From Chlorobiota bacterium (GTDB lineage Bacteria > Bacteroidota > Bacteroidia > Bacteroidales > JAADGE01), in contig JAADDR010000096.1 in assembly GCA_013153865.1 (NCBI GenBank), positions 3,729-67,728 on the forward strand: a stretch of DNA of 64,000 bases, in the 5' to 3' direction. Under the pieces are notes generated by a model that was given only the letters and a program-made list of their open reading frames with translations, made no database searches and was not told the DNA's origin. Below, in pieces: positions 28,142-43,798 of this stretch (position 1 is the stretch's first letter; every line of letters starts with the position of its first letter). The translations under genes and the position numbers were made by a program.

Positions 28142-28152
28142 ATTCTGATATT

Positions 28153-28869: not shown

Positions 28870-28881
28870 TGAGGATTTTAA

Positions 28882-31437: not shown

Positions 31438-32016
31438 ATGCTGTCCGAAAGGCAAGAACAAATAATTGAAGAATCCATAAAATTAATAGCAGATAAAGGA
31501 ATTCAAGGGTTTACGATAAAAAATTTATCAAAAGCAATAGGATTCTCCGAACCTGCCATATACAGACATTTCAACAGTAAAACCGATATAATTTCCGCAA
31601 TCTTGGAAAAATTCTTAATAATTGCGGCTTTTTTATCAAAAGAAACATCCGAATCAAACTCATCGGCTTTCGAAAAAATAGCTTTTATAATTAAACAAAT
31701 GATTAACATGTTCACGGAAACACCTTCATTGGTTCCCGTCATTTTTTCGGAAGAAATATTCAAAAACGAAACTGCACTTAAAGAAAAAATAATAACAATA
31801 CTTAATAAAGATAAAGAAACTATCGAAAGAATAATTTCGGAAGGACAAAAAAACGGAGAATTTCGAACCGACATAGACGAAAAAACTTTAACCCTTACCG
31901 TTATGGGTTCATTAAGGTTGTTGGTCAAAAAATGGGACTTGGAAAATCGAAAGTTTAATTTAAAAAAAGAAAGCGACTTATTAATTTCGGCTTTAAATAA
32001 AATATTAACGGTATAA
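31438..32016 (+). CDS. TetR/AcrR-family transcriptional regulator
   Basis: 192 aa. N-terminal HTH (GFTIKNLSKAIGFSEPAIYRHFNSK). Confidence 0.85.
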   Translation: MLSERQEQIIEESIKLIADKGIQGFTIKNLSKAIGFSEPAIYRHFNSKTDIISAILEKFLIIAAFLSKETSESNSSAFEKIAFIIKQMINMFTETPSLVPVIFSEEIFKNETALKEKIITILNKDKETIERIISEGQKNGEFRTDIDEKTLTLTVMGSLRLLVKKWDLENRKFNLKKESDLLISALNKILTV

Positions 32017-32028
32017 ATACGAAACACC

Positions 32029-32925
32029 ATGGTACAACTAAATAAACATCAACATCTTATTATATCTCTGTCGATTATATTTATATTCTCCGGACACAAA
32101 ATGTCGGCAGATACCATTCCTTCAATAAATTTAACAACCATTGCACAAGTAAATCAAGGAAACAGCTATATAACATTTCCTACTGATATAGGTAATATCG
32201 AATCTCTTTGGTTTGAAGCAAACCTGATACCGAATTTTCATATACGCACAAATAAAGATGCAAGATTAATGGGAGTTCTTACACCGCAAATGATTATAAG
32301 AATGTATCAAGAATATTCATATCCGGTAAGAACCCCGAGTTATATGCCGCAAATAACAATGTATTACAAACTCGACAAATACAATAAAAACAGCACTCTG
32401 TTTGCAAGATTGGCACACCACTCAAACGGACAAGACGGAGACTTTTACAACGAAGACGGAACAATAAATTTATTATCGGGTGATTTCTCTACAAATTGGT
32501 TCGAACTGGGGCTTATACGCACATTTTTTAACGACAGGTTCAATGCAACACAATTTTTCAGAACATCTTTAAGAAAAGATTTCTTCGAAAGTTCAAACCA
32601 AGAAAACGGAATATACAGTAAATTCAGATGGAAAAGCAGTTTCTCCATTTTTAAAATAAGAGAAAACGGAGAGCACGGAAAGAAAAAAGCGGGATTCTCT
32701 TTAAAAATGGATGCCGAAATAATGTTCGGCGACATATATACGTGGAGCAATAATGATTTTGACCGGTTAAATATCGGACTTACGGCTTTCTATACCCCGA
32801 AATTTTTTGAAGACATAGGATTTTTCATAAACTTATATCACGGACAAGACTACTACAACATATATTTTAATCATCAATTAAACGTAATCCGTTTCGGTAT
32901 TATGACCGAAGTATTAAGATTTTAA
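32029..32925 (+). CDS. Outer-membrane phospholipase A1 (OMPLA/PldA)-like beta-barrel protein
   Basis: 298 aa. LAHHSNGQDG matches the OMPLA catalytic HxSNG motif. An upstream YPVRTPSYMPQI segment and a downstream FSTNWFE segment parallel the OMPLA PFRxTNYxPE and SRSWNR regions. Confidence 0.55.
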   Translation: MVQLNKHQHLIISLSIIFIFSGHKMSADTIPSINLTTIAQVNQGNSYITFPTDIGNIESLWFEANLIPNFHIRTNKDARLMGVLTPQMIIRMYQEYSYPVRTPSYMPQITMYYKLDKYNKNSTLFARLAHHSNGQDGDFYNEDGTINLLSGDFSTNWFELGLIRTFFNDRFNATQFFRTSLRKDFFESSNQENGIYSKFRWKSSFSIFKIRENGEHGKKKAGFSLKMDAEIMFGDIYTWSNNDFDRLNIGLTAFYTPKFFEDIGFFINLYHGQDYYNIYFNHQLNVIRFGIMTEVLRF

Positions 32926-32936
32926 ATAAAGAGAAC

Positions 32937-33356
32937 ATGAAAAACATAACAATTAGTCTGCTAACAATAATATTCTCCGTTTCAATCGGTTACTCACAAA
33001 AAGCCGATGACATAACAGGAAAATATCATCTGCCGAACAAACTGGATATAGAAATATTCAAATACAAAACAACATATGCCGGCAGAATAATAGCCCTCAA
33101 CGGCTTCGAAAACGGACAAACAAAAGATATTAAAAACCCCGACGGTAAAAAAAGAAACGACCCCTTAACAGGAAAAGTAATAATAACCGGACTGAAATTT
33201 AACCCCGAAACCAAAACATGGGAAAACGGTAAAATGTACGGAGCAGAAAAAGGAATGTTTTTCAACCTGAGAATAAAAAAACTAAAAAAAGATAAAATAA
33301 CAGTAGAAGCCTCTAAATATTTCTTTAAGAAAACTATAGACTGGGAAAGAATATAA
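32937..33356 (+). CDS. DUF2147-like secreted protein
   Basis: 139 aa with a signal peptide. YAGRIIAL...DIKNPDGKKRNDPLTGKVIITGLKF...WENGKMYGAEKG resembles DUF2147. Confidence 0.55.
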   Translation: MKNITISLLTIIFSVSIGYSQKADDITGKYHLPNKLDIEIFKYKTTYAGRIIALNGFENGQTKDIKNPDGKKRNDPLTGKVIITGLKFNPETKTWENGKMYGAEKGMFFNLRIKKLKKDKITVEASKYFFKKTIDWERI

Positions 33357-33421
33357 AAATTGACACATTTTAAATTATTTACTTTAAAATATGAAAAATT
33401 TTTTGTATCGCATGTAATTTT

Positions 33422-33429
33422 TAACTTTG
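33422..33429 (+). promoter_or_regulatory. TAnnTTTG -7 box (with an upstream TTTG at 33402-33405) for the inositol/sphingolipid operon
   Basis: taactttg lies 33 nt upstream of the ATG at 33462. Confidence 0.45.
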
Positions 33430-33461
33430 TCGGTCAAAATTCGGGCAAAACAAAAAGAAAA

Positions 33462-34154
33462 ATGTCAGACAATAACCTTTGGAATAATATAAAAACAAGC
33501 GCCTATAAAGCACTGCAGCCTATTATAAACCTGCTTGTTAAAACAGGCATAACTCCCAACGGCATTACCGTTACAGGATTTATTATAACTATATTTGCAG
33601 CCGTTATTTTAATTGTGGGAGCAGAAACCGGAAAAAGAGGAGACATAAAATACATTACATGGTTCGGAATTGTTATACTCATTGCCGGACTTTTCGATAT
33701 GCTCGACGGACAATTAGCCAGAAAAACAGGCAAAATGACAAAATTCGGAGCTTTATTCGACTCCGTAATAGACCGGTACAGCGAAATGATAATGTTCTTC
33801 GGAATTGCATACTACTTAGTATCATACCATTATTTCCTTAGCGGTGTATTAGCATTTATAGCAATGATAGGATCAATTATGGTAAGCTACGTAAGAGCAC
33901 GAGCAGAAGGTCTGGGAGTAGATTGTAAAATAGGCCTGATGCAACGCCCCGAACGAATACTTACAATAGGCATCTCCGCATTATTATACGGCATTATATC
34001 ACGATTTACGGGAACATTTAAAATAGAAACTGACGTTTTCCCGTACACATTATTCGAAAACATATCAATATTTACAATACCGATTTTTATTCTGGCCGTG
34101 TTAACAAACTATACGGCTTTCCAACGTTTAAACCATTGCAGAAAAAAAATGTAA
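33462..34154 (+). CDS. CDP-alcohol phosphatidyltransferase, probable phosphatidylinositol-phosphate synthase
   Basis: DMLDGQLARKTGKMTKFGALFDSVIDRYSE matches D(x)2DG(x)2AR(x)8G(x)3D(x)3D. Directly upstream of an inositol-3-phosphate synthase gene. Start chosen at the internal Met downstream of the promoter box. Confidence 0.8.
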   Translation: MSDNNLWNNIKTSAYKALQPIINLLVKTGITPNGITVTGFIITIFAAVILIVGAETGKRGDIKYITWFGIVILIAGLFDMLDGQLARKTGKMTKFGALFDSVIDRYSEMIMFFGIAYYLVSYHYFLSGVLAFIAMIGSIMVSYVRARAEGLGVDCKIGLMQRPERILTIGISALLYGIISRFTGTFKIETDVFPYTLFENISIFTIPIFILAVLTNYTAFQRLNHCRKKM

Positions 34155-34182
34155 CTTAATTTTAAATTAAATTATCAAATAA

Positions 34183-35499
34183 ATGAACTCTAAACAAAAT
34201 ATTCAAAATCCGGAAGGAAAGTTAGGAATACTTATACCCGGTATCGGCGCAGTATCAACTACCTTTATGGCAGGCGTATTTGCCGCAAGAAAAGGAATAG
34301 CACAACCCATAGGTTCCGTTTCCCAAATGGGTAAAATAAGAATAGGAAAAAGAACGGAAGACAATAACCCCTACGTAAAAGACTTTGTGCCTTTAGCATC
34401 ATTAGACGACATGGTTTTCGGCGGATGGGACATATTCTCCGAAAACGCATACGAAGCAGCATCTAAAGCCGGAGTATTGGAAAAAGACTTGCTCAACCAA
34501 GTTAAAGACGAACTCTCGCAAATAAAACCCATGCCGGCAGTATTTAACAGAAACTTCGTTAAAAACCTCGACGGCGACCATGTCAAAAAAGAGCCGACAA
34601 AAATGGACGAAGCAAAAGCTCTTATCGAAGACATAAAAAGATTTAAAAACGAAAACAACTGCGACAGAGCAGTAATGATATGGTGTGCATCTACAGAAGT
34701 ATATACGGAAGAAACAGACATACATCAATCAGTAGAAGCATTCGAAAAAGCTCTCGAAGAAAACCACCCCTCGATAGCCCCGAGTATGATATACGCATAT
34801 GCGGCTATTAAATCGGGAATTGCTTTTGCAAACGGAGCTCCGAACCTGACAATAGACACTCCCGCATTAATAGAACTTGCCAACAGACTTAACGTTCCCA
34901 TTGCAGGAAAAGACTTTAAAACAGGACAAACTCTAATGAAAACAATTCTCGGTCCCGGATTAAAAACAAGACTTCTCGGAATCGACGGATGGTTCTCTAC
35001 AAACATACTCGGAAACAGAGACGGAAAAGTTCTGGACGATGCAGATTCATTTAAAACAAAAGAAGTATCAAAATTAAGCGTACTCGACAGTATATTAGAA
35101 CCCGAACTGTACCCGGAACTATATAAAAACATGTATCACAAAGTAAGAATAAACTATTATCCGCCTAAAGGCGACGACAAAGAAAGTTGGGACAATTTGG
35201 ATATATTCGGATGGCTCGGATACAAAATGCAAATTAAAGTAAACTTCCTTTGCAAAGACTCGATTCTTGCAGCTCCGGTAGTTCTTGACCTCGCCGTATT
35301 TATGGACTTGGCCCAACGTTCCGGAATGAAAGGAATACAAGAATGGCTCTCATTCTACTTTAAATCTCCGCAAACAAAAAAAGGTCTTAAACCGATACAC
35401 GATATTTTCTTACAAAAAATAAAATTTGAAAATACCTTAAGATATTTAATGGGAGAAACACTCATTAATCACTTAGGTTTAGATTATTACGAAGAATAA
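34183..35499 (+). CDS. ino1: myo-Inositol-1-phosphate (inositol-3-phosphate) synthase
   Basis: 438 aa. N-terminal GILIPGIGAVSTT Rossmann start, GWDIF, ANGAPN, and GKDFKTGQT...NILGNRDG, typical of bacterial/archaeal MIPS. Confidence 0.85.
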   Translation: MNSKQNIQNPEGKLGILIPGIGAVSTTFMAGVFAARKGIAQPIGSVSQMGKIRIGKRTEDNNPYVKDFVPLASLDDMVFGGWDIFSENAYEAASKAGVLEKDLLNQVKDELSQIKPMPAVFNRNFVKNLDGDHVKKEPTKMDEAKALIEDIKRFKNENNCDRAVMIWCASTEVYTEETDIHQSVEAFEKALEENHPSIAPSMIYAYAAIKSGIAFANGAPNLTIDTPALIELANRLNVPIAGKDFKTGQTLMKTILGPGLKTRLLGIDGWFSTNILGNRDGKVLDDADSFKTKEVSKLSVLDSILEPELYPELYKNMYHKVRINYYPPKGDDKESWDNLDIFGWLGYKMQIKVNFLCKDSILAAPVVLDLAVFMDLAQRSGMKGIQEWLSFYFKSPQTKKGLKPIHDIFLQKIKFENTLRYLMGETLINHLGLDYYEE

Positions 35500-35500
35500 A

Positions 35501-35977
35501 ATGAAAATTTCCGAAATAACGGCATCGGGATTAGGGACCGGGTATTCTCCGGTTGCACCCGGAACGGCTGGCTCCGTTTTGGGTATAATTCTGCTTTGGA
35601 TATTTAATCTTGGTTTACAAAAATTAAATTTTGAGCAACCGGAAATCCTTGTCCTTAATTCCGCTGTTATTTTTATCATAATATTTTCGGGAGTATGGTC
35701 AATTAAAAAAGTCCACGAAACATGGGAACACGATGCCGGAAAAATAGTAATAGACGAAATAGCGGGCGTCTGGATTGCAGCTTTTTCAGCCCCCCTCAAT
35801 CTATATTACTATATGGCGGCATTAACTCTGTTTCGCTTTTTTGATATAACAAAACCTCTGTATATCAAAAAATTCGACAATATGAAAAACAACTGGAGCG
35901 TTATGCTTGACGATATACTGGCGGGAATATACAGTTTAATTATTTTACGGATGCTCATTTATTTTGACATTTTTTAA
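35501..35977 (+). CDS. PgpA-family phosphatase (candidate phosphatidylinositol-phosphate phosphatase)
   Basis: 158 aa. GLGTGYSPVAPGTAGSV, VIDEIAGVWIA, FRFFDITKP, MLDDILAG. Starts 1 nt after the ino1 stop. Confidence 0.8.
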   Translation: MKISEITASGLGTGYSPVAPGTAGSVLGIILLWIFNLGLQKLNFEQPEILVLNSAVIFIIIFSGVWSIKKVHETWEHDAGKIVIDEIAGVWIAAFSAPLNLYYYMAALTLFRFFDITKPLYIKKFDNMKNNWSVMLDDILAGIYSLIILRMLIYFDIF

Positions 35978-36374
35978 AATGAACCGAAAAAAACAGCACC
36001 CGGTTAAAATTTTTTTAAAATACAATGTTGTGGCAGGCATTGCCACGGCGGTAGACTTTACCGTTCTTATATTTTTGACTGAAGTTGTCCATATATGGTA
36101 CCTGCTCTCGGCTACTGCAGGAGCAATCAGCGGAGGAATAACGGCATTTACGCTCGAAAGAAACTGGACTTTTATGAAAAAAGACGGAAAATTATCAGCT
36201 CAAGCAATAAAATACGCGGCAGTCTGGATTACAAGCATATTTTTAAATATAGCAGGATTATACTTACTGGTGGAATATACAAAACTACAATACATTATCT
36301 CAAAAATAATAGTAGCCGTAACAGTAGGCATAGGATTTAATTTTTTAACACACAAATATTATATTTTTAAATAG
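35964..36374 (+). CDS. GtrA-family small membrane protein
   Basis: 136 aa with 4 TM helices. VVAGIATAVDFTVLIFL...ISGGITAFTLERNWTF. Overlaps the PgpA gene by 14 nt. Confidence 0.75.
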   Translation: MTFFKMNRKKQHPVKIFLKYNVVAGIATAVDFTVLIFLTEVVHIWYLLSATAGAISGGITAFTLERNWTFMKKDGKLSAQAIKYAAVWITSIFLNIAGLYLLVEYTKLQYIISKIIVAVTVGIGFNFLTHKYYIFK

Positions 36375-36376
36375 AA

Positions 36377-38926
36377 ATGAAAAAACATCAAACAATATAC
36401 CTGTCGGCAATTATTATATCTCTGTTTTTCATTTCGATAACAAACTCTTACTCTCAAAAAACAACAAGAATAAGAGGAAAAGTGATAAATGCCGAAACCA
36501 AAGAACCGATACCGTTTGCAAATATCGTTTTCGTAGGAAAAAATATCGGAACAACCACTGACTACAAAGGAGAATACAGCCTGCAAACACAATGGGCTTC
36601 AAACAAAGTTCAAGCAGCTTACATCGGATTCAAAAGCAGCATCAAAAAAATTACAGTAGGAAAAAACCAAACAGTTAACTTCCAACTGCAACCCGAAAAC
36701 ATAAGCATCGGAGAAGTAGTAGTAAAATCAAAACGAAAAAGATACAGAAACAAAAATAATCCGGCAGTAGAACTAATAAAAAAAGTAATAAAAAACAAAG
36801 ACAATAACAGAAAAGAAAGTCTTGATTTCTACGAATACGAAAAATACGAAAAAATAGAATTCGACCTTAACAACATTACCGAAAAATTCAGAAAAAAAAG
36901 AGTATTCAAACAATACCAATTCATATTTAATTATGTTGACACATCCGAAATAAACGGAAAACCTTACCTGCCCGTATTTCTCAGAGAAACATTATCAAAA
37001 GTATATTACAGAAAATCACCAAAAGCATACAAAGAATATGTAACAGGTACAAAATCGGTAGGATCAAAAGAATACATAGACAGCGAAGGAACAGATATGA
37101 TGGTCGACTACTTATATCAAGACATAGACCTCTACAACAACGAAATAACACTCCTTACAAACCAATTCATAAGCCCTATATCATCAATAGCTCCGGTTGT
37201 TTACAAATTCAGAATAATAGACACAATTACCGTAAACAATCGCTCATGCATAAACCTTGCTTTCCAACCCAGAAACAAACTTGACTTCGCATTTATAGGC
37301 AACCTGTATATTACAAACGACGATAAATATTCGGTAATAAAAGCCGAAATGGGCATTACCGACGATATAAATCTGAACTTTGTTACGGACTTACACATTA
37401 ACCAAGAATTCGAATTTATAAACAACCAATGCTGGATGCTCACAAAAGACGAACTTATTATCGACTTTAACATCGCAAAAAAAGGAGCCGGAATGTTCGG
37501 AAAACGCTCGGTAATATACGATAATTACGTCTTTAACAAAAAACGCGACGAAAGCATATACTCCGGAATAGAAAAAACGGTAAAAGAAGAAAACTACGAC
37601 AAACGCGACGACGAATTCTGGAAACAAAACCGGCTCGAAAAATTAAGCAAACAAGAAGCCGACATATACACAATGGTGGACAGTGTTCAACACATGCCCG
37701 CATTCAAAAGAACAATGGACATCCTGACATTACTCGTGGCAGGATACTGGAATTTCGGAAAATTCAACCTCGGACCTGTAAACACATTCTACAGTTTCAA
37801 CGACGTAGAAGGATTCAGACTCAGAATAGGAGGAAGAACAAGCGAAAAATTCAGTAAACGCCTCAGACTCGAAGGATACGGACTATACGGATTTAAAGAC
37901 AAAAAATACAAATACTCCGGAAGCATAATATGGGCACTGAACAACAAACCCATAAAATCATCAACACGACACACAATATCGGCAATGTACCAAGTCGAAA
38001 CAAACTTTCCCGGCATGGAAATGCAATTCATCAACGAAGACAACTTCCTGCTGTCATTCAAAAGAGGCGTTGCAGACAAAATCCTATACTACGAAATGCT
38101 GAAAATCGAACATTACAGAGACTGGAAAAACGGATTCTCCACCACATTCAACCTCAAACACGTTACGCAAGAACCCGGAGGAACCCTCCGCTTCGACTAC
38201 GACGACAGATCATTAAGCTCCATAACAACAAGCGAAATTACCGCAGTAGTAAGATTTGCCCCAAACGAAAAATACATACAGGGATACAATTACAGAATAC
38301 CGATGTTCGGAAAATATCCCATAATACAAGTATCCTACACACAAGGACTTGAAGCACTGAGAAACGCAGACTTTACATACGGTAAACTCTCACTCAACCT
38401 CTTCAAACGAATACACCTTGCACCGCTCGGATTCACAAACTTCGAACTCGAAGCCGGAAAAATATTCGGATCCGAAATTCCCTTCCCGCTGATGTTCATC
38501 CACAGAGCAAATCAAACATATTCGTACCAGTTACATTCTTACAATATGATGAACTTTCTCGAATTTGTCAGCGACGAATACGTTTCCGTATTTGCAGAAC
38601 ACCACTTTTACGGATTTTTCTTCAACAAAATACCGCTGCTCAAAAGACTCAAATGGAGAGAAGTAATATCGGCAAAAGGAATATACGGAGGAGTTACCGA
38701 CAAAAACAACCCCGAAGTTACACCCGGATTAATGAAATTCCCGACTGACGAATACGGAAACACAACAACATACACATTAACACAAAAACCTTACATAGAA
38801 ATAAGCGCAGGTATCGAAAACATTTTCAAATTTTTCAGGGTTGACATCGTAAAAAGAGTTACATACCTGAACAACCCCAATGTTTCGGAATACGGTATCA
38901 GAGCCAGATTTAAATTTGACTTTTAA
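36377..38926 (+). CDS. Large putative outer-membrane protein: carboxypeptidase-regulatory-like N-domain plus uncharacterised C-terminal region (DUF5686-like)
   Basis: 849 aa. Signal peptide. IRGKVINAETKEPIPFANIVFVGKNIGTTTDYKGEYSL (CarboxypepD_reg-like). C-terminal ...YGIRARFKFDF has alternating hydrophobic residues and a terminal Phe (OMP beta-signal). Confidence 0.65.
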   Translation: MKKHQTIYLSAIIISLFFISITNSYSQKTTRIRGKVINAETKEPIPFANIVFVGKNIGTTTDYKGEYSLQTQWASNKVQAAYIGFKSSIKKITVGKNQTVNFQLQPENISIGEVVVKSKRKRYRNKNNPAVELIKKVIKNKDNNRKESLDFYEYEKYEKIEFDLNNITEKFRKKRVFKQYQFIFNYVDTSEINGKPYLPVFLRETLSKVYYRKSPKAYKEYVTGTKSVGSKEYIDSEGTDMMVDYLYQDIDLYNNEITLLTNQFISPISSIAPVVYKFRIIDTITVNNRSCINLAFQPRNKLDFAFIGNLYITNDDKYSVIKAEMGITDDINLNFVTDLHINQEFEFINNQCWMLTKDELIIDFNIAKKGAGMFGKRSVIYDNYVFNKKRDESIYSGIEKTVKEENYDKRDDEFWKQNRLEKLSKQEADIYTMVDSVQHMPAFKRTMDILTLLVAGYWNFGKFNLGPVNTFYSFNDVEGFRLRIGGRTSEKFSKRLRLEGYGLYGFKDKKYKYSGSIIWALNNKPIKSSTRHTISAMYQVETNFPGMEMQFINEDNFLLSFKRGVADKILYYEMLKIEHYRDWKNGFSTTFNLKHVTQEPGGTLRFDYDDRSLSSITTSEITAVVRFAPNEKYIQGYNYRIPMFGKYPIIQVSYTQGLEALRNADFTYGKLSLNLFKRIHLAPLGFTNFELEAGKIFGSEIPFPLMFIHRANQTYSYQLHSYNMMNFLEFVSDEYVSVFAEHHFYGFFFNKIPLLKRLKWREVISAKGIYGGVTDKNNPEVTPGLMKFPTDEYGNTTTYTLTQKPYIEISAGIENIFKFFRVDIVKRVTYLNNPNVSEYGIRARFKFDF

Positions 38927-38942
38927 AAAACAAAACAAAAAA

Positions 38943-40139
38943 ATGAGACATTTACAAAAAAGATTTGCAGAATACAATTTACCTCAAATAGCCATGAAAG
39001 AAGGCATATACGCCTTTTACCACGAAATAGAAACAGGACAGGATACTGTCGTAAAAATAAACGGAAAAGAAATACTCATGTTCGGATCCAACAGCTACCT
39101 CGGACTCACAAACCACCCCGAACTCATAAAAGCCGGACAAGAAACATTAAAACAATACGGAACCGGAGCATCAGGATCAAGACTGATGAACGGAAACCTC
39201 GACCTGCACGTAAAACTCGAAGAAAAACTCGCCGAATTTGTCTGCAAACCCGCAGCAACAATATTCAGTACCGGATTTCAAACAAACCTCGGAGTAATCT
39301 CAAGCGTGGCAGGAAGAAACGACTACATAATTGCTGACGAAAAAAACCACGCATCAATAATAGAAGGTACCAGACTCTCTTTCGGAACAACATATAAATA
39401 CAAACACAACGACATGAATTCTTTGGAAAAAGCACTCCGAAGAACTCAAAAAGGAAACAAAGATAAAATAGTTCTTATCGTTACCGACGGAATATTCAGT
39501 ATGGAAGGCGACATAGCAAAACTAGACGAAATAAGCAAACTCGCCGAAAAATACAACGCTTCGGTAATGGTTGACGATGCCCACGCACTCGGCGTAATAG
39601 GCAAAAACGGCGCAGGAACCGCCTCGCACTTCGGACTTACCGAAAAAACAGACCTTATAATGGGTACTTTCAGCAAATCTTTAGCATCTTTAGGCGGATT
39701 TATTGCCGGAGACAAAGATACCATAAACTATATAAAACACAATGCCAGATCACTGCTGTTCAGTGCAGGAATACCGCCCGCATCAGCGGCAACCGTGCTT
39801 AAAGCACTCGAAATTATTAAAGCCGAACCGGAAAGAATAGACAAACTGTGGGAAAACACAAACTACGCAAAAAAACGCCTCCTCGAAGAAAACTTCGACA
39901 TAGGCAACAGCACAACCCCAATAATTCCAATCTTTACCGGAGAAGACAATAAAACATTCATATACGCATCAATGCTTCTGGAAAAAGGAGTTTACGTAAA
40001 CCCGGTTGTACACCCGGCTGTCGAAAAAAACAAAGGAATACTCAGATTCTCGCTAATGGCAACACACACAAAAGAACAAATCGACAAAGCAATGGAAAAA
40101 TTAATCGAATGCAGAACAATTATCGAAAATTTTAAATAA
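38943..40139 (+). CDS. spt: Alpha-oxoamine synthase family PLP enzyme, probable serine palmitoyltransferase
   Basis: 398 aa. FGSNSYLGL, GSRLMNG, VDDAHALG, and the PLP-lysine context GTFSKSLASLGG. Start set at Met 38943; the ORF-track start at 38880 overlaps the upstream gene. Confidence 0.75.
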   Translation: MRHLQKRFAEYNLPQIAMKEGIYAFYHEIETGQDTVVKINGKEILMFGSNSYLGLTNHPELIKAGQETLKQYGTGASGSRLMNGNLDLHVKLEEKLAEFVCKPAATIFSTGFQTNLGVISSVAGRNDYIIADEKNHASIIEGTRLSFGTTYKYKHNDMNSLEKALRRTQKGNKDKIVLIVTDGIFSMEGDIAKLDEISKLAEKYNASVMVDDAHALGVIGKNGAGTASHFGLTEKTDLIMGTFSKSLASLGGFIAGDKDTINYIKHNARSLLFSAGIPPASAATVLKALEIIKAEPERIDKLWENTNYAKKRLLEENFDIGNSTTPIIPIFTGEDNKTFIYASMLLEKGVYVNPVVHPAVEKNKGILRFSLMATHTKEQIDKAMEKLIECRTIIENFK

Positions 40140-40184
40140 TATTGTATCCGACATTAAATATAAAACAACTAAAATTATCCTGAA

Positions 40185-41315
40185 ATGGAAAACATCCGAA
40201 TTAAAGAAGTAAAATCAAAATCCGATTTAAATAAATTTATTGCCTTTCCGGATAAATTATATAAAGGCAACAAATACAGAGTACCCCAATTACATTCCTT
40301 CGAACGCTCAACACTTATGAAAGAAAAAAATCCCGCTTTCGACTTTTGCGAAGCAAAATACTGGCTCGCATACAAAGACAACAAAATAGCGGGAAGAATA
40401 GCAGCAATACTTAACCCGAAATCAAACGAAATATGGAACGAAAAAAATATGCGTTTCGGATGGATTGACTTTATCGATGACTTCGAAGTATCTTCCGCAC
40501 TTATTAAAACCGTTGAAAATTGGGCGGCAGAAAAAGGAATGACCGCAGTTCACGGACCGCTCGGATTTACCGATATGGACCTCGAAGGAATGCTCGTGGA
40601 AGGATTTAACGAAACAGGTACACAAGCAACACTCTACAACTACCCGTATTACCCCCAACATCTCGAAAAACTCGGATACAAAAAAGACGTTGACTGGATA
40701 CAATTCGAAGTTAAAACACCGAAAGAAGTTCCCGAAAAAGTAAAAAAAATATCCGACCTGGTTCTGAAAAAATACAACCTCAGAATATTAGACGCTAAAA
40801 AACCAAAAGACATACTTCCGTATGCAAAAAGTATGTTTAACACACTGAACGAAGGATTTAAAGACCTGTACGGATACGTACCCCTAACCGAAAAACAAAT
40901 CGATTATTACATTAAAGCTTACTTCTCGATGATTAATACAAAATTCGTAAGTTTTATTATCGACGAAAAAGACGAAGTCGCAGCATTCGGAATTACGGTT
41001 TTATCGCTATCCGAAGCTCTGCAAAAAGCTAAAGGAAAACTTTTCCCCTTCGGATTTATACACATACTGAAAGCTCTTAACAAAAACACTAAAGTAGATA
41101 TGCTCTTACACGGCGTAAAACCCGAATATCAAAAAAAGGGAGTAATCGCAGTGGTATATAAAGAACTTATGGAAGCATACATAAACAACGGAGTAAAAAC
41201 AGCAATTACAAGCCATATCCTGGAAAACAACAAAGACTCATACCAAATGTTCAGCCCCTACGAAACAAGGCAACACTTAAGAAGACGCATTTATACAAGA
41301 CATTTAGAAGACTAA
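40185..41315 (+). CDS. GNAT-superfamily acyl-CoA N-acyltransferase (candidate bacterial ceramide synthase)
   Basis: 376 aa. C-terminal GNAT motif-A-like VKPEYQKKGVIAVVYKELMEAY. Located between the spt-like and SDR genes. Confidence 0.55.
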   Translation: MENIRIKEVKSKSDLNKFIAFPDKLYKGNKYRVPQLHSFERSTLMKEKNPAFDFCEAKYWLAYKDNKIAGRIAAILNPKSNEIWNEKNMRFGWIDFIDDFEVSSALIKTVENWAAEKGMTAVHGPLGFTDMDLEGMLVEGFNETGTQATLYNYPYYPQHLEKLGYKKDVDWIQFEVKTPKEVPEKVKKISDLVLKKYNLRILDAKKPKDILPYAKSMFNTLNEGFKDLYGYVPLTEKQIDYYIKAYFSMINTKFVSFIIDEKDEVAAFGITVLSLSEALQKAKGKLFPFGFIHILKALNKNTKVDMLLHGVKPEYQKKGVIAVVYKELMEAYINNGVKTAITSHILENNKDSYQMFSPYETRQHLRRRIYTRHLED

Positions 41316-41316
41316 A

Positions 41317-42309
41317 GTGAAAAAAATTTTAATTACCGGAGCAAGCGGATTCATAGGAGGATTTCTTGTAAAAGAAGCACTCGACAGAAAATACGAAACA
41401 TATGCGGGAATAAGAAAATCCGGCAGCAGAAAAAATTTATCCGACGACAAAATTAAACTTTTCATATATAAACTGTACGACAAAGAAGACTTAAAACAAA
41501 AAATAAACAAATTCGGAAAATTCGATTACGTAATACACAATGCCGGATTAACAAAATCCTGCGATAAAAAAGCATTCGAAGAAGTCAATTTCAATTACAC
41601 AAAAAACCTTATCGAAGCTCTTATCGAAACAAACAACATACCCGAAAAATTTATATACATAAGCAGCTTGGATGCCTTCGGTCCGGGAAACGAAAAAACA
41701 ATGCAACCGATAAAAATAACCGATACCCCAAAACCTCAAACACTCTACGGAAAAAGCAAACTCAAAGCCGAACAATACATAATCTCTTTACCCGAACTTA
41801 AAAGCATCATAATAAGACCTACCGGAGTTTACGGACCCGGAGAAAAAGATTACCTTCTCGCTTACAAAAGTATTAAAAACGGTCTGGAAACATATATAGG
41901 AACAACCGAACAAGCAATATCTTTTATTTACGTTAAAGATTTGGCAAGACTTATCTTTGACGCTCTCGAATCAAACATATACGGAAAAGCATATTTCGTT
42001 TCCGACTTTAAAAATTACACAACAAAAATATTTAACGAAACTGTAAAAAAATATCTTAACAAAAAAACCGTTAAAATTATATTCCCGAAAAGCATAATAA
42101 AAATTATATCTTTCATAACAGAAAACATATCATGCTTATTCGGAAAACCCGCCACCTTAAACACCGAAAAATTTAAAATAATAAGTGCTCGCAACTGGCT
42201 GTGCGACAGCACCGACACGGCAAAAGATTTCGGTTTTAAACCGGAATACGACCTCGAAAAAGGCATTAAAGAAACCTTAGATCGGTGTAAAAAAGAAAAA
42301 TTATTGTAA
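41317..42309 (+). CDS. NAD-dependent epimerase/dehydratase-family reductase (candidate ceramide/3-keto reductase)
   Basis: 330 aa with a GTG start 1 nt after the upstream stop. ILITGASGFIGG Rossmann motif and catalytic YGKSK. Confidence 0.7.
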   Translation: MKKILITGASGFIGGFLVKEALDRKYETYAGIRKSGSRKNLSDDKIKLFIYKLYDKEDLKQKINKFGKFDYVIHNAGLTKSCDKKAFEEVNFNYTKNLIEALIETNNIPEKFIYISSLDAFGPGNEKTMQPIKITDTPKPQTLYGKSKLKAEQYIISLPELKSIIIRPTGVYGPGEKDYLLAYKSIKNGLETYIGTTEQAISFIYVKDLARLIFDALESNIYGKAYFVSDFKNYTTKIFNETVKKYLNKKTVKIIFPKSIIKIISFITENISCLFGKPATLNTEKFKIISARNWLCDSTDTAKDFGFKPEYDLEKGIKETLDRCKKEKLL

Positions 42310-42330
42310 ACATTCTGAAACTAAATCTAA

Positions 42331-42864
42331 ATGCAAAAAATTTTAATCCTATTGACGGCGCTAAGCGCTTATACCCCGGCTTTTTCCCAACCGGCAGACT
42401 ATCCGGTTCCGCCGCAAACACAAAACAGATTATTTTACATACAACGTAATCTCAATAAAAACACAATTATTTATGACGTAAATTTTGATAAAAACGGAAA
42501 TATACGTAAAGACGACCCCGTGGACGTATATTGGATAAGATACGAAGAAAAAGGACAACGCATGGAATTAAGGGCTATAGAAAGAAGATTCGCTTTCGGC
42601 GAAAAATGCATACCCCTTAAATCAAACCCCGAATATTACCGGCTCAAAATTGCAGCAACAGACAAAAAAGAACTCTTACTTAAACAAACAGCTCCTTTTA
42701 AAGCCGTAGTTTACATGAAAATAAACGGAAAATACTCAAAACTTGTTCATCTTTACATCTTTGCCGACACTTCTAAATTTTGGCCCGACGTAAAATACAT
42801 AGAAATTTTCGGTAAAGACATAAAAACAGGTAAACCGACTTACGAAAAAATGATTGACCCGTAA
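42331..42864 (+). CDS. Small secreted protein of unknown function (DUF4833-like)
   Basis: 177 aa. Signal peptide MQKILILLTALSAYTPAFSQ. No catalytic motif recognised. Confidence 0.6.
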   Translation: MQKILILLTALSAYTPAFSQPADYPVPPQTQNRLFYIQRNLNKNTIIYDVNFDKNGNIRKDDPVDVYWIRYEEKGQRMELRAIERRFAFGEKCIPLKSNPEYYRLKIAATDKKELLLKQTAPFKAVVYMKINGKYSKLVHLYIFADTSKFWPDVKYIEIFGKDIKTGKPTYEKMIDP

Positions 42865-42880
42865 AATAAAATTACAACCG

Positions 42881-43798
42881 ATGTCTTTTAAAAGATTTAC
42901 GAAAAAAAATATAATCACTAATATCATTCTGGCAATTACATATGTTTTATGGAACATTTTTGTCGGAGGATTAAGAAGCGAACACGTATTCCTGATTGTT
43001 TTGTGGTTCGTAATGTTTTACGCAACGGAAAAAACGCGCAAATTCATTCTCGGATTTTCAATATTCATAATATATTGGATTATCTACGACTCAATGCGCA
43101 TATTACCGAATTATAAAGTATCGCAAGCACATATAAGACAACCCTACGAATACGAAAAATCACTGTTCGGTATAGCAGACGGCAACACATTACTTACGCC
43201 TAACGAATATTTTGCCCTATACCACAAACCCTTTTTAGACTTACTCTCCGGACTCTTTTATATAAACTGGGTACCTGTTCCTTTAGCATTCGGAGTATAT
43301 CTGTATTTCAAAGATAAGTATATTTTTACCAAATTCTCATTGGTATTTTTGCTTGTAAACATATTCGGGTTTATAATATATTACATATATCCCGCAGCTC
43401 CGCCCTGGTATGTGCAACTTTACGGTTTCGACCTGCATATCGGTGTTCCCGGAAACAGAGCCGGACTTGCACGCTTCGATAACCTTATAGGCATTCCGGT
43501 ATTCAAAAACATATATAACAAAAACGCAAACGTATTAGCGGCAATGCCTTCGCTGCATGCAACTTATCCGCTTATAGTACTGTTCTACGGAATTAAAAAA
43601 GGTCTGAAAAAAATAAATATAATATTTGCAATATTCATGTTAGGAATATGGTTCTCCGCAGTATATTCTTCTCATCATTATATCATAGACCTTATTGCGG
43701 GAGTCGTCCTTGCTCTTATCGTTATACTCCTTTTCGAAAAAATCTCCGAAAAACCTTTCTTTAACAAGAAAATACAATCTTTTATAAAACAAATTTAA
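42881..43798 (+). CDS. PAP2-superfamily membrane protein, AUR1-like inositol-phosphoceramide synthase candidate
   Basis: AMPSLHATYP and SSHHYIIDLIAG match the PAP2 C2/C3 motifs in the form seen in AUR1-type IPC synthases. About 6 TM helices. Start chosen at Met 42881, after the upstream stop. Confidence 0.7.
   Translation: MSFKRFTKKNIITNIILAITYVLWNIFVGGLRSEHVFLIVLWFVMFYATEKTRKFILGFSIFIIYWIIYDSMRILPNYKVSQAHIRQPYEYEKSLFGIADGNTLLTPNEYFALYHKPFLDLLSGLFYINWVPVPLAFGVYLYFKDKYIFTKFSLVFLLVNIFGFIIYYIYPAAPPWYVQLYGFDLHIGVPGNRAGLARFDNLIGIPVFKNIYNKNANVLAAMPSLHATYPLIVLFYGIKKGLKKINIIFAIFMLGIWFSAVYSSHHYIIDLIAGVVLALIVILLFEKISEKPFFNKKIQSFIKQI

What the first reader, a model, noticed from the sequence alone, without database searches (positions are those of the whole stretch)
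38943..42309. Contiguous alpha-oxoamine synthase / GNAT / NAD-epimerase triad matching the bacterial Spt-CerS-CerR ceramide route
**Seen in sequence.** Three adjacent genes encode a PLP alpha-oxoamine synthase (GTFSKSLASLGG lysine context), a 376-aa GNAT with an acyl-CoA motif-A-like segment (YQKKGVIAV), and a Rossmann reductase (GASGFIGG, YGKSK) whose GTG start lies 1 nt after the GNAT stop.

**Established knowledge.** In Caulobacter crescentus, ceramide is made by Spt, a GNAT-type ceramide synthase that acylates 3-ketosphinganine, and an epimerase/dehydratase-family reductase (CerR).

**Inference.** This triad would be the Bacteroidota counterpart. To my knowledge the acylation and reduction genes of Bacteroidota are less firmly assigned than Spt, so a compact spt-GNAT-reductase block inside an IPC operon would give a direct genetic assignment.

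**Alternative.** The same three enzyme classes could make N-acylated capnine-type sulfonolipids (cysteate acyltransferase, reductase, N-acyltransferase), which gliding Bacteroidota produce. A GldB-like gene is present in this window.
Basis: partly seen in the sequence, partly recalled or inferred. Interest (0 to 1): 0.7.

Follow-up and report, generated by a model that had tools for sequence, protein, structure and literature searches.

The report
Ceramide-synthesis triad inside an inositol-sphingolipid operon
Three adjacent genes in this Bacteroidota genome are the counterparts of the known bacterial ceramide enzymes (Spt, bCerS, CerR), and they sit in one operon with the known inositol-lipid genes, so the operon appears to encode the full route to inositol phosphoceramide; this is a tidy new example of a known pathway rather than a new one.

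Summary
Three intact + strand genes lie at 38943-40139 (alpha-oxoamine synthase), 40185-41315 (376-aa GNAT) and 41317-42309 (extended SDR, with a GTG start 1 nt after the GNAT stop).

**What supports the ceramide reading**
- **Synthase:** it is a Bacteroidota-type serine palmitoyltransferase. It is 57% identical to crystallised Sphingobacterium SPT (495 bits), against 278 and 254 bits to cysteate acyltransferases.
- **GNAT:** it has a tandem-GNAT fold and aligns end to end (27-31% identity) with the acyltransferases of sphingolipid clusters in Sphingomonas, Streptomyces, Aureispira and E. coli. The E. coli protein is YghO, which the literature lists as the homolog of Caulobacter CC_1154 (bCerS).
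- **Reductase:** its best hits outside Bacteroidales are the epimerases next to those same GNATs.
- **Synteny:** the triad is contiguous in 18 of 80 related loci.

In the window the triad is inserted into a B. thetaiotaomicron-type inositol-lipid cluster (PIP synthase, MIPS, PgpA, GtrA, PI-dihydroceramide synthase). The sulfonolipid alternative is disfavoured.

**Novelty is modest.** B. fragilis CerS and CerR already have knockout support. What is new is the contiguous arrangement inside the inositol operon.

**Best lead:** GtrA, DUF5686 (an Omp85-like barrel) and DUF4833 travel with the ceramide genes and may be sphingolipid export factors.

The parts
31438..32016 (+). TetR-family regulator with a YsiA-like C-terminal domain. 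It is the first gene of the + strand run and a possible regulator of the operon (inferred).
   Evidence: Pfam TetR_N and TetR_C_4. A 40%-identical TetR directly precedes Spt in the Prolixibacteraceae locus L007.
32029..33356 (+). Two small genes of unknown role, a 298-aa protein with no family and a DUF2147 protein. Both are tightly packed between the TetR gene and the PIP synthase gene.
   Evidence: ORF map. Pfam gives no hit for the first and DUF2147 for the second. Whether they belong to the operon is inferred from the 3-12 nt spacing only.
33360..34154 (+). CDP-alcohol phosphatidyltransferase, a BT_1523-type phosphatidylinositol-phosphate synthase. The true start is probably downstream of the TTG at 33360.
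   Evidence: Pfam CDP-OH_P_transf. NCBIfam NF052561 PIPSynBT1523 scores 312 bits (cutoff 350) and aligns from residue 43.
34183..35499 (+). myo-Inositol-1-phosphate synthase (BT_1526-type).
   Evidence: Pfam NAD_binding_5 at 2e-105 and Inos-1-P_synth at 3e-31.
35501..35977 (+). PgpA-family phosphatase (BT_1525-type PIP phosphatase).
   Evidence: Pfam PgpA at 3e-41. The role of BT_1525 is taken from PMC9246714.
35964..36374 (+). GtrA-family membrane protein, the counterpart of BT_1524. Function unknown.
   Evidence: Pfam GtrA_DPMS_TM at 9e-21. BT_1524 is described as a GtrA-motif protein whose knockout has no lipid phenotype.
36377..38926 (+). DUF5686 outer-membrane protein with an N-terminal CarboxypepD_reg domain and a C-terminal Omp85-like beta-barrel. 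It is a candidate lipid export or insertion factor (speculative).
   Evidence: Pfam. AF2 model with pLDDT 72.6. Foldseek best hits are TamA, BamA and Sam50 barrels. It is syntenic with the triad in L004, L006-L009 and L016, and sits next to GNAT-Epim in L001.
38943..40139 (+). Serine palmitoyltransferase (Spt) of the Bacteroidota type.
   Evidence: NCBIfam NF047600 SerpalmtaseCFB scores 615 bits (cutoff 640); the next model scores 407. It is 57% identical to Sphingobacterium SPT 8guh/3a2b at 495 bits.
40185..41315 (+). Tandem-GNAT N-acyltransferase, the bCerS-type ceramide synthase candidate.
   Evidence: C-terminal Acetyltransf_1. AF2 pLDDT 97 with a tandem-GNAT fold. It is 27-31% identical over its full length to E. 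coli YghO and to the Streptomyces, Sphingomonas and Aureispira cluster GNATs. YghO and CC_1154 are listed together as the 'aca' gene in PMC9386255.
41317..42309 (+). Extended-SDR NAD(P)-dependent reductase, the CerR-type ceramide reductase candidate.
   Evidence: Pfam Epimerase at 7e-31, with GxxGxxG and YxxxK motifs. It is 44% identical to the B. finegoldii homolog and 22-31% identical to the epimerases next to cluster GNATs in Aureispira, Streptomyces, E. coli and Sphingomonas.
42331..42864 (+). DUF4833 protein with a hydrophobic N-terminal stretch that looks like a signal sequence. Function unknown, but conserved in the operon.
   Evidence: Pfam DUF4833 at 5e-39. Present in L001, L004 and L007-L009 next to the triad or the GNAT-Epim pair.
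42854..43798 (+). PAP2_3-family phosphoinositol dihydroceramide synthase (BT_1522-type).
   Evidence: Pfam PAP2_3 at 6e-23. NCBIfam NF052609 PhinosDhcerSyn scores 336 bits (cutoff 480) at E 2e-100.

Best explanation
The three genes encode the bacterial dihydroceramide pathway.

1. Spt (38943-40139) condenses serine with a fatty acyl thioester to give 3-ketosphinganine.
2. The tandem-GNAT protein (40185-41315) is a bCerS-type ceramide synthase that N-acylates the long-chain base.
3. The extended-SDR protein (41317-42309) is a CerR-type reductase that reduces the 3-keto group.

The triad is inserted into a B. thetaiotaomicron-type inositol-lipid cluster. In that cluster MIPS makes inositol phosphate, the PIP synthase and PgpA make phosphatidylinositol, and the PAP2_3 enzyme produces phosphoinositol dihydroceramide from the dihydroceramide. 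One run of tightly packed same-strand genes would therefore supply both substrates and the final enzyme for inositol phosphoceramide.

**Shown here:** gene structure, family assignments, full-length homology to GNATs and epimerases of sphingolipid clusters in four phyla, and conserved synteny.

**Inferred:**
- catalytic activities;
- substrate preference;
- co-transcription;
- the order acylation then reduction, which is taken from the Caulobacter and B. fragilis knockout phenotypes in the literature;
- use of acyl-CoA rather than a dedicated ACP, suggested because no acpR or aasR gene is in the operon.
For: **Spt**
- NF047600 (CFB-type serine palmitoyltransferase) scores 615 bits; the next alpha-oxoamine synthase model scores 407.
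- It is 57% identical to Sphingobacterium SPT.

**GNAT**
- tblastn against 7.3 Gb of plasmid records gives full-length hits to E. coli YghO (E 3e-38), Streptomyces (7e-35), Aureispira (5e-29) and Sphingomonas (1e-22).
- Each of these lies in a cluster with an alpha-oxoamine synthase and an epimerase. The Sphingomonas and E. coli clusters also hold an ACP.
- The Sphingomonas synthase is the crystallised SPT (907 bits).
- PMC9386255 lists yghO/ECD_02850 with CC_1154 as 'aca', and ECD_02852 with CC_1164 as 'epi'.

**Reductase**
- In the reciprocal search its best hits outside Bacteroidales are the epimerases beside those GNATs.
- BLASTP gives 91-156 bits to them, against 48 bits to the best solved sugar epimerase.

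**Synteny**
- Spt-GNAT-Epim is contiguous in 18 of 80 loci.
- The full inositol-operon form recurs in L004, L008 and L009.
- The GNAT-Epim-DUF4833-PAP2_3 arrangement persists in Ca. Sulfidibacterium.

**Operon partners**
- They match the BT_1523 and BT_1522 models and the published BT_1522-1526 cluster.

**Published genetics**
- In B. fragilis, loss of cerS accumulates 3-ketosphinganine and loss of cerR accumulates keto-dihydroceramide.
Against: - **No direct reference comparison.** CCNA_01212, CCNA_01222, BF9343_4218 and BF9343_4240 were not available. The link runs through E. coli YghO plus a paper's gene table, and through Bacteroides homologs (49% and 44% identity) that I could not tie to locus tags.
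- **Low identity.** Identity to the proteobacterial and actinobacterial proteins is only 22-31%. Extended SDRs are a very large family.
- **Broad GNAT family.** It occurs at about 50% identity in Chloroflexota, Firmicutes isolates, Spirochaetota, Ignavibacteriota and Cloacimonadota, with no Spt within 10 kb and uninformative neighbours. Not every member need make ceramide.
- **Below curated cutoffs.** The Spt, PIP synthase and PI-DHC synthase scores are all under NCBIfam's equivalog cutoffs (615/640, 312/350, 336/480).
- **A competing route exists.** B. thetaiotaomicron has a classical-SDR 3-ketosphinganine reductase, BT_0972, so a reduction-first route exists in some Bacteroidota.
Confidence: 0.85

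Rival explanations
1. Same three enzymes, but in the eukaryote-like order. The SDR first reduces 3-ketosphinganine to sphinganine, and the GNAT then acylates sphinganine.
For: - Olea-Ozuna and co-workers proposed this order for the homologous Caulobacter genes.
- Sphinganine is the main intermediate in B. thetaiotaomicron and B. ovatus, and BT_0972 shows that 3-ketosphinganine reductase activity exists in Bacteroides.
- Nothing in the sequence fixes the order.
Against: - Caulobacter and B. fragilis cerR knockouts accumulate the acylated keto intermediate, and cerS knockouts accumulate 3-ketosphinganine.
- Gene order and the 1-nt junction (GNAT then reductase) fit acylation first, but only weakly.
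Confidence: 0.2
2. The triad makes capnine-type sulfonolipids. In this reading the synthase is a cysteate-C-fatty acyltransferase, the SDR is a dehydrocapnine reductase and the GNAT is the N-acyltransferase.
For: - The enzyme classes match.
- The organism has gliding and T9SS genes: GldB at 56825-57853 and a Por_Secre_tail protein at 4023-5975.
- Cysteate acyltransferases are detectable relatives of the synthase.
Against: - The synthase scores 495 bits (57% identity) to Sphingobacterium SPT, but only 278 bits to the cysteate-C-fatty acyltransferase 28eh and 254 bits to 7u7h.
- It nearly reaches the CFB Spt equivalog cutoff.
- The operon ends in a phosphoinositol dihydroceramide synthase homolog, which needs a ceramide 1-hydroxyl that capnine lacks (established chemistry).
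- No cysteate-synthase-like gene was found in the window.
Confidence: 0.04
3. The GNAT and the epimerase do not act on the sphingoid base. They modify another amine or sugar of an inositol-containing lipid or glycan, for example by N-acylating an amino sugar or amino acid lipid and epimerising or reducing a head group.
For: - The GNAT-Epim pair stays in the inositol operon of Ca. Sulfidibacterium even though Spt is not there.
- The GNAT family is widespread in phyla without a linked Spt.
- The closest solved folds include glucosamine N-acetyltransferase and mycothiol synthase, which act on an inositol-linked amino sugar.
- The reductase belongs to the sugar-nucleotide epimerase superfamily.
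Against: - GNAT and epimerase homologs are paired with an alpha-oxoamine synthase in Sphingomonas, E. coli, Streptomyces and Aureispira, where no inositol genes are nearby.
- The triad also occurs without MIPS or PAP2_3 in Chitinophagaceae, Sediminibacterium and Prolixibacteraceae.
- Fold matches have TM of only about 0.6 at 8-15% identity.
Confidence: 0.06

Closest known systems
Caulobacter crescentus ceramide pathway: Spt CCNA_01220/CC_1162, bCerS CCNA_01212/CC_1154, CerR CCNA_01222/CC_1164 (Stankeviciute 2022; Olea-Ozuna 2021)
   Same: The three enzyme families are the same: an alpha-oxoamine synthase, a roughly 380-aa GNAT acyltransferase and an extended-SDR reductase. The window GNAT and reductase align over their full length with the E. 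coli and Sphingomonas members of these families.
   Different: - Identity is only 22-29%.
- There is no dedicated AcpR or AasR, and no LptF/LptG paralogs, which the proteobacterial loci have.
- The three genes are directly contiguous here, whereas in Caulobacter they are spread over ccna_01212-01226.
- The Spt belongs to the Bacteroidota/delta-proteobacterial subgroup, not the Rhodobacteria subgroup.
Bacteroides fragilis CerS (BF9343_4218) and CerR (BF9343_4240)
   Same: These are Bacteroidota homologs of the Caulobacter enzymes with knockout phenotypes. Bacteroides species carry homologs of the window GNAT (49% identity) and reductase (44% identity).
   Different: - In Bacteroides the genes are dispersed: GNAT alone in 12 Bacteroides/Bacteroidaceae loci, and CerS and CerR 22 locus tags apart.
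- The literature states they are not co-localised with spt in Bacteroidota, whereas here they form one block.
- I could not match my Bacteroides loci to those locus tags.
Bacteroides thetaiotaomicron inositol lipid cluster BT_1522-BT_1526 (Heaver 2022)
   Same: All five gene types are present: PAP2 PI-DHC synthase, CDP-alcohol PIP synthase, GtrA protein, PgpA phosphatase and MIPS.
   Different: The window operon additionally carries DUF5686, Spt, GNAT, reductase and DUF4833 between the GtrA gene and the PAP2 gene. In B. thetaiotaomicron, Spt (BT_0870) is elsewhere in the genome.
Streptomyces sp. NBC_01001 plasmid cluster (synthase, GNAT, epimerase, condensation-domain protein)
   Same: The order and tight packing of the three genes are the same. 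The GNAT is 27% identical and the epimerase 27% identical to the window proteins.
   Different: It is actinobacterial, is followed by a condensation-domain protein and has no inositol genes. It is uncharacterised as far as I could see.
Capnine/sulfonolipid pathway (cysteate synthase, cysteate-C-fatty acyltransferase, dehydrocapnine reductase)
   Same: It uses an alpha-oxoamine synthase followed by keto reduction and N-acylation, and it occurs in gliding Bacteroidota.
   Different: The synthase here is far closer to SPT than to solved cysteate acyltransferases (495 against 278 and 254 bits). No cysteate-synthase-like gene was found in the window.

Membership tests
bCerS-type bacterial ceramide synthase (CC_1154/CCNA_01212, E. 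coli YghO, BF9343_4218) | Full-length sequence homology to a recognised member | tested here: met
   The window GNAT aligns with E. coli YghO at 29% identity over residues 4-374 of 376 (BLASTP E 6e-49 in a small database; tblastn E 3e-38 against 7.3 Gb). YghO/ECD_02850 is listed with CC_1154 as 'aca' in PMC9386255.
bCerS-type bacterial ceramide synthase (CC_1154/CCNA_01212, E. coli YghO, BF9343_4218) | Direct comparison with the experimentally studied proteins CCNA_01212 and BF9343_4218 | not tested
Bacteroides homologs at 49% identity exist but could not be tied to locus tags.
bCerS-type bacterial ceramide synthase (CC_1154/CCNA_01212, E. coli YghO, BF9343_4218) | GNAT fold with an acyl-CoA binding motif | tested here: met
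   Acetyltransf_1 matches residues 295-356. The AF2 model has pLDDT 97, and its Foldseek best hits are tandem-GNAT proteins. G319 of the QKKGV motif is nearly invariant in 114 homologs.
bCerS-type bacterial ceramide synthase (CC_1154/CCNA_01212, E. coli YghO, BF9343_4218) | Genomic association with spt and cerR | tested here: met
   It is adjacent to both in the window and in 18 of 80 related loci. Distant homologs sit in spt clusters in Sphingomonas, E. coli, Streptomyces and Aureispira.
bCerS-type bacterial ceramide synthase (CC_1154/CCNA_01212, E. coli YghO, BF9343_4218) | N-acylation of 3-ketosphinganine or sphinganine | not testable with these tools
   This needs an enzyme assay or genetics.
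CerR-type ceramide reductase (CC_1164/CCNA_01222, ECD_02852, BF9343_4240) | Extended-SDR Rossmann fold with GxxGxxG and a catalytic YxxxK | tested here: met
   GASGFIGG lies at residues 8-15 and YGKSK follows downstream. Pfam Epimerase scores 7e-31 and 3Beta_HSD 2e-22.
CerR-type ceramide reductase (CC_1164/CCNA_01222, ECD_02852, BF9343_4240) | Closer to sphingolipid-cluster epimerases than to other SDRs | tested here: met
   In the reciprocal tblastn against plasmid records, the best hits outside Bacteroidales are the epimerases next to GNAT homologs (Aureispira, Streptomyces, Pseudomonas BYT-5, E. coli, Rahnella, Klebsiella). BLASTP gives 91-156 bits to them, against 48 bits to the best PDB epimerase and 68 bits to the best NCBIfam model. 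The scores come from different programs, so the contrast is approximate.
CerR-type ceramide reductase (CC_1164/CCNA_01222, ECD_02852, BF9343_4240) | Periplasmic location, as reported for Caulobacter CerR | tested here: inconclusive
   There is no N-terminal signal sequence, because the Rossmann motif starts at residue 8. The E. coli, Sphingomonas and Streptomyces homologs start the same way, so the sequence does not discriminate.
Serine palmitoyltransferase, Bacteroidota (CFB) type | Scores as Spt rather than BioF, KBL, ALAS or cysteate acyltransferase | tested here: inconclusive
   NF047600 scores 615 bits, 25 bits below its curated equivalog cutoff of 640. This is still far above the next models (407 BioF/Kbl family, 406 KBL, 399 BioF). 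It is 57% identical to Sphingobacterium SPT at 495 bits, against 278 and 254 bits for cysteate acyltransferases. Amino-acid specificity was not tested.
Bacteroides-type inositol sphingolipid cluster (BT_1522-BT_1526) | Presence of PIP synthase, MIPS, PgpA phosphatase, GtrA protein and PAP2 PI-DHC synthase in one cluster | tested here: met
   All five are present on the + strand between 33360 and 43798. The PIPSynBT1523 score (312 against cutoff 350) and the PhinosDhcerSyn score (336 against 480) are strong matches but below the equivalog cutoffs.
Capnine/sulfonolipid pathway | Synthase of the cysteate-C-fatty acyltransferase type and a cysteate synthase | tested here: not met
   The synthase is much closer to SPT. 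No cysteate-synthase-like gene was found among the annotated genes of the window. The rest of the genome was not available.

The most novel reading that the evidence does not exclude
The operon may encode transport as well as synthesis. GtrA, the Omp85-like DUF5686 outer-membrane barrel and the probably secreted DUF4833 protein could form a Bacteroidota-specific system that flips, carries or inserts sphingolipids into the outer membrane.

This would fill the role that LptF2/LptG2 paralogs play in Caulobacter. It would address the question a 2026 preprint leaves open: how Bacteroidota, which have a single lptFG, move sphingolipids.

The three genes follow Spt-GNAT-Epim even in loci that lack the inositol genes (L006, L007, L016), so they track ceramide rather than inositol.
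Probability: 0.25. Interest if true: 0.7.

Novelty: new member of a known kind. Interest (0 to 1): 0.38.

Why it matters
**For the assignment.** The locus gives independent genomic-context support for the Bacteroidota ceramide synthase and reductase. It shows that, contrary to the published generalisation, these genes can be contiguous with spt in Bacteroidota. The lineages where this holds are Bacteroidales MAGs, Prolixibacteraceae, Draconibacterium, Chitinophagaceae, Sediminibacterium and Aureispira.

**For experiments.** The locus is a compact run of 10 core genes (up to 14 with the flanking ones), about 10.4 kb, that could be moved as one piece to reconstitute inositol phosphoceramide synthesis.

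**For open questions.** It nominates three conserved proteins of unknown function (GtrA, DUF5686, DUF4833) as candidates for sphingolipid trafficking in Bacteroidota, a step for which the papers I read name no genes.

None of this overturns current understanding of the pathway.

Tried and rejected
**Routes to the reference proteins that failed**
- The Stankeviciute 2022 paper is not held under its PMC id or DOI.
- The supplements of two citing papers hold no sequences.
- The AlphaFold-database fold libraries were not available.
- The link to bCerS therefore had to go through plasmid-collection hits and a gene table in PMC9386255.

**Searches that reached only Bacteroidota**
- The 1.84-billion-representative search with the GNAT found 5085 relatives at E <= 1e-3. 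The 150 best listed go down to about 33% identity, and the few that carry names are Bacteroidota, so it did not reach Proteobacteria.

**Other dead ends**
A 19-sequence alignment worked.
- Sequence search of the GNAT against solved structures found nothing.
- The sigma-70 promoter and terminator scan was uninformative, with 40 sites found against 40.6 expected.
- Pfam scans of all 114 GNAT homologs gave only generic GNAT families. Acetyltransf_6 appeared in 14 members at best E 1e-4, which is a hint and not evidence.
- Neighbours of solitary GNATs in Firmicutes, Chloroflexota, Spirochaetota, Ignavibacteriota and Bacteroides are unrelated genes of varied function and give no functional clue.

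**Considered and rejected**
- A horizontally acquired island: GC content of the operon (0.34-0.41) matches the flanks.
- The classical SDRs at 28153-28869 and 56110-56805 as 3-ketosphinganine reductases. The first gave only generic SDR matches; the second was scanned against Pfam only and hit adh_short.

Full report
**1. What is in the sequence**

The + strand between about 31.4 and 44.4 kb carries an uninterrupted run of tightly packed genes. The three genes of the finding are intact.

| Gene | Coordinates | Length |
|---|---|---|
| Alpha-oxoamine synthase | 38943-40139 | 398 aa |
| GNAT protein | 40185-41315 | 376 aa |
| Extended-SDR protein | 41317-42309 | 330 aa |

- The mechanical ORF for the synthase starts at 38880. 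That start overlaps the end of the upstream gene, and the family models begin to align at the ATG at 38943.
- All quoted motifs are present.
- The GNAT stop ends at 41315 and the reductase GTG begins at 41317.
- GC content matches the flanks.
- The flanking genes are housekeeping (IF-2, HisRS, PGK, NQR, IleRS, the SUF system). GldB and a T9SS-sorted peptidase are also present. The contig is therefore Bacteroidota-like, even though the identical protein at NCBI is labelled 'Chlorobi bacterium'.

**2. The operon**

In order, the genes from 33360 to 43798 are:
- a CDP-alcohol phosphatidyltransferase, best matching the BT_1523 PIP synthase model;
- myo-inositol-1-phosphate synthase;
- a PgpA phosphatase;
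- a GtrA protein;
- an 849-aa DUF5686 protein;
- the triad;
- a DUF4833 protein;
- a PAP2_3 protein, best matching the phosphoinositol dihydroceramide synthase model.

This is the five-gene B. thetaiotaomicron inositol-lipid cluster BT_1522-1526 (PMC9246714; BT_1524 is the GtrA protein), with five further genes inserted. A TetR regulator and two small unknown genes precede it, and a 193-aa unknown gene follows.

**3. The synthase is a serine palmitoyltransferase**

- It scores 615 bits on NCBIfam's CFB-type Spt model. That is 25 bits under the strict equivalog cutoff, but the next alpha-oxoamine synthase model scores only 407.
- Its best solved relative is Sphingobacterium multivorum SPT, at 495 bits and 57% identity over 384 residues.
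- Solved cysteate acyltransferases score 278 and 254 bits.
- No cysteate-synthase-like gene was found in the window.
- The operon ends in an enzyme that needs ceramide.

For these reasons I rate the sulfonolipid alternative at about 4%.

**4. The GNAT is a bCerS-type acyltransferase**

*Fold.* Sequence search found no solved relative and no curated NCBI family. A confident AlphaFold model (pLDDT 97) has a tandem-GNAT fold. It is nearest to the clavulanate-pathway tandem GNAT, MAB_4324, glucosamine N-acetyltransferase and mycothiol synthase, at TM about 0.6.

*Context.* The decisive evidence came from a translated search of the plasmid collection, which also holds some mislabelled chromosomes. 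Full-length homologs at 25-31% identity sit in sphingolipid-type clusters.

| Organism | Cluster content |
|---|---|
| Sphingomonas parapaucimobilis | reductase, ACP, SPT, LptF/G paralogs, desaturase, N-acetyltransferase |
| E. coli PN43 | LptF/G paralogs, synthase, ACP, epimerase, fatty acyl-AMP ligase, YghO |
| Streptomyces sp. NBC_01001 | synthase, GNAT, epimerase, in the same order as here |
| Aureispira anguillae | GNAT and synthase, with a divergent epimerase |

The Sphingomonas synthase is essentially the crystallised S. paucimobilis SPT (907 bits).

*Link to Caulobacter.* PMC9386255 lists yghO (ECD_02850) with Caulobacter CC_1154 as the acyl-CoA N-acyltransferase gene. It lists ECD_02852 with CC_1164 as the epimerase gene of the dihydroceramide pathway. 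CC_1154 and CC_1164 are the genes others call bCerS (CCNA_01212) and CerR (CCNA_01222); I take that correspondence from the papers' descriptions and my own knowledge. Pairwise BLASTP gives 29% identity to YghO, 27% to Streptomyces, 28% to Sphingomonas and 31% to Aureispira. All alignments are essentially full length except Aureispira, which covers 93%.

**5. The reductase is CerR-type**

Extended SDRs are very numerous, so I used a reciprocal context test.
- Searching the same 7.3 Gb with the reductase returns only 33 records at E <= 1e-10.
- After the Bacteroidales homologs (42-47% identity), the best hits are the epimerases that lie next to the GNAT homologs in Aureispira, Streptomyces, Pseudomonas sp. 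BYT-5, E. coli, Rahnella and Klebsiella.
- BLASTP scores to these are 91-156 bits. The best solved epimerase scores 48 bits and the best NCBIfam model (HpnA) 68 bits.
- The protein has the Rossmann motif at residue 8 and no signal sequence. The proteobacterial homologs start the same way, so the reported periplasmic location of Caulobacter CerR (PMC11087976) cannot be judged from sequence.

**6. Synteny**

A scan of one genome per species with a 19-sequence GNAT alignment kept the 80 best loci. A tblastn panel of the window's proteins was then run against them.

| Arrangement | Loci |
|---|---|
| Spt, GNAT and reductase contiguous | 18 loci: Bacteroidales MAGs, Draconibacterium, Prolixibacteraceae, Chitinophagaceae, Sediminibacterium, Flavisolibacter, and one MAG labelled Phycisphaerae |
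| Full inositol-operon form | L004, L008, L009 |
| Same operon minus Spt | Ca. Sulfidibacterium hydrothermale |
| GNAT alone | Bacteroides species |

The Bacteroides result agrees with the statement in PMC11334938 that the three genes are not co-localised in sphingolipid-producing Bacteroidota. It also agrees with the B. fragilis CerS and CerR genes lying 22 locus tags apart.

A neighbour-joining tree of the GNATs tracks phyla. It places the window next to Ca. Sulfidibacterium inside a Bacteroidales/Marinilabiliales group.

**7. Caveats**

- I could not compare directly with CCNA_01212, CCNA_01222, BF9343_4218 or BF9343_4240.
- The GNAT family is large: 5085 representatives at E <= 1e-3.
- Members at about 50% identity occur in Chloroflexota, Firmicutes isolates, Spirochaetota, Ignavibacteriota and Cloacimonadota, without a nearby Spt and with uninformative neighbours. 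Whether those make ceramide is open.
- The order of acylation and reduction is taken from published knockouts, not from the sequence.
- B. thetaiotaomicron also has a reduction-first enzyme, BT_0972.

**8. Mechanism proposed**

1. Serine plus acyl thioester gives 3-ketosphinganine (Spt).
2. N-acylation gives keto-dihydroceramide (GNAT).
3. Reduction gives dihydroceramide (SDR).
4. In parallel, glucose-6-phosphate is converted to inositol phosphate (MIPS), then to PIP (CDP-alcohol transferase), then to PI (PgpA).
5. The PAP2_3 enzyme then forms phosphoinositol dihydroceramide from the dihydroceramide.

Gene identities are shown here. The chemistry is inferred from homologs. No acpR or aasR gene is present, so acyl-CoA is the likely donor (inferred).

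**9. The side lead**

- **They track ceramide.** GtrA, DUF5686 and DUF4833 follow the triad even in Prolixibacteraceae and Draconibacterium loci that lack MIPS and PAP2_3. DUF5686 follows it in a further Bacteroidales locus, L016.
- **Conservation.** DUF5686 is unusually conserved, at 61-83% identity among its top 120 homologs.
- **Shared contigs.** 34 of those homologs share a longest-contig length with one of the top 120 GNAT hits, which implies the two genes lie on the same contigs.
- **Fold.** A moderate-confidence model (pLDDT 72.6, pTM 0.45) has a C-terminal barrel most like TamA, BamA and Sam50 (E 2e-8; TM 0.57-0.61 against the isolated barrels).
- **Literature.** No held paper discusses either DUF functionally. 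A 2026 preprint notes that Bacteroidota have a single lptFG and may use another sphingolipid transport route.

This is speculation, but it is testable.

**10. Verdict**

- The enzymes are new members of known families, and the pathway is known.
- What is new is the contiguous triad fused to the inositol-lipid cluster, and the recurrent unknown-function partners.
- Interest is moderate to low for the triad itself and higher for the transport lead.

Noticed in passing
window 36377-38926; also L001, L004, L006-L009, L016: DUF5686 has a C-terminal barrel that resembles Omp85-family proteins (TamA, BamA, Sam50) in a moderate-confidence model. It is 61-83% identical among its top homologs. It follows the ceramide genes even where inositol genes are absent.
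   Followed up: partly
window 42331-42864 and 35964-36374; L007 12871-13278 and 16022-16582: DUF4833 (with a signal-like N-terminus) and GtrA travel with Spt-GNAT-Epim in Prolixibacteraceae, without MIPS or PAP2_3. Neither has a known function, and the B. thetaiotaomicron GtrA knockout has no lipid phenotype.
   Followed up: partly
window 31438-32016; L007 7907-8494: A TetR regulator with a YsiA-like C-terminal domain, the type found in fatty-acyl-CoA-responsive repressors, heads the gene run. A 40%-identical TetR directly precedes Spt in L007.
   Followed up: no
L015, L018-L019, L025, L027-L028, L030, L034, L036, L039-L041, L044-L046, L048-L053, L056, L061-L063, L065, L069, L071-L072, L074-L075: GNATs about 50% identical to the window's occur in Chloroflexota, Firmicutes isolates (Thermoclostridium caenicola, Paradesulfitobacterium ferrireducens), Spirochaetota, Ignavibacteriota, Cloacimonadota and others. 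None has Spt within 10 kb, and the neighbours checked are unrelated. The tree is star-like and tracks phyla.
   Followed up: partly
L013, L016, L033, L047, L053, L063: Several loci carry two tandem copies of the GNAT (42-52% identical to the window protein). In L016 and L033 the extra copy sits between Spt and the main GNAT. This may reflect different acyl-chain or base specificities.
   Followed up: no
L089 8001-9964 (Bacteroides finegoldii): The Bacteroides homolog of the reductase (44% identity) overlaps the start of a PAP2-family gene that shows no BLASTP similarity to the window's PAP2_3. It may be another ceramide head-group enzyme.
   Followed up: partly
L007 12174-12863: In Prolixibacteraceae a divergent CDP-alcohol phosphatidyltransferase (Pfam E 8e-6) follows the reductase in place of the inositol genes. 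This suggests a different sphingolipid head group.
   Followed up: no
L001 (Ca. Sulfidibacterium hydrothermale CP083760.1, 1410974-1432101): This locus has the same inositol operon with GNAT, reductase, DUF4833 and PAP2_3, but no Spt within the 21-kb locus. Spt must lie elsewhere in that genome or be absent.
   Followed up: no
L084 10045-11292 (Streptomyces sp. NBC_01001 plasmid): The actinobacterial synthase-GNAT-epimerase block is followed by a condensation-domain protein. This hints at a further acylated or peptide-linked product.
   Followed up: no
window 27221-29976, - strand: A lipid-flavoured trio lies just upstream of the operon: an alpha/beta hydrolase (lysophospholipase-like), a classical SDR, and an LPG_synthase_TM flippase-like membrane protein.
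   Followed up: partly
whole window: The identical proteins are deposited as 'Chlorobi bacterium' (GXO50), but the contig has Bacteroidota hallmarks: GldB at 56825-57853, a T9SS sorting domain at 4023-5975, and a GNAT that nests among Bacteroidales. The taxonomic label looks wrong.
   Followed up: partly
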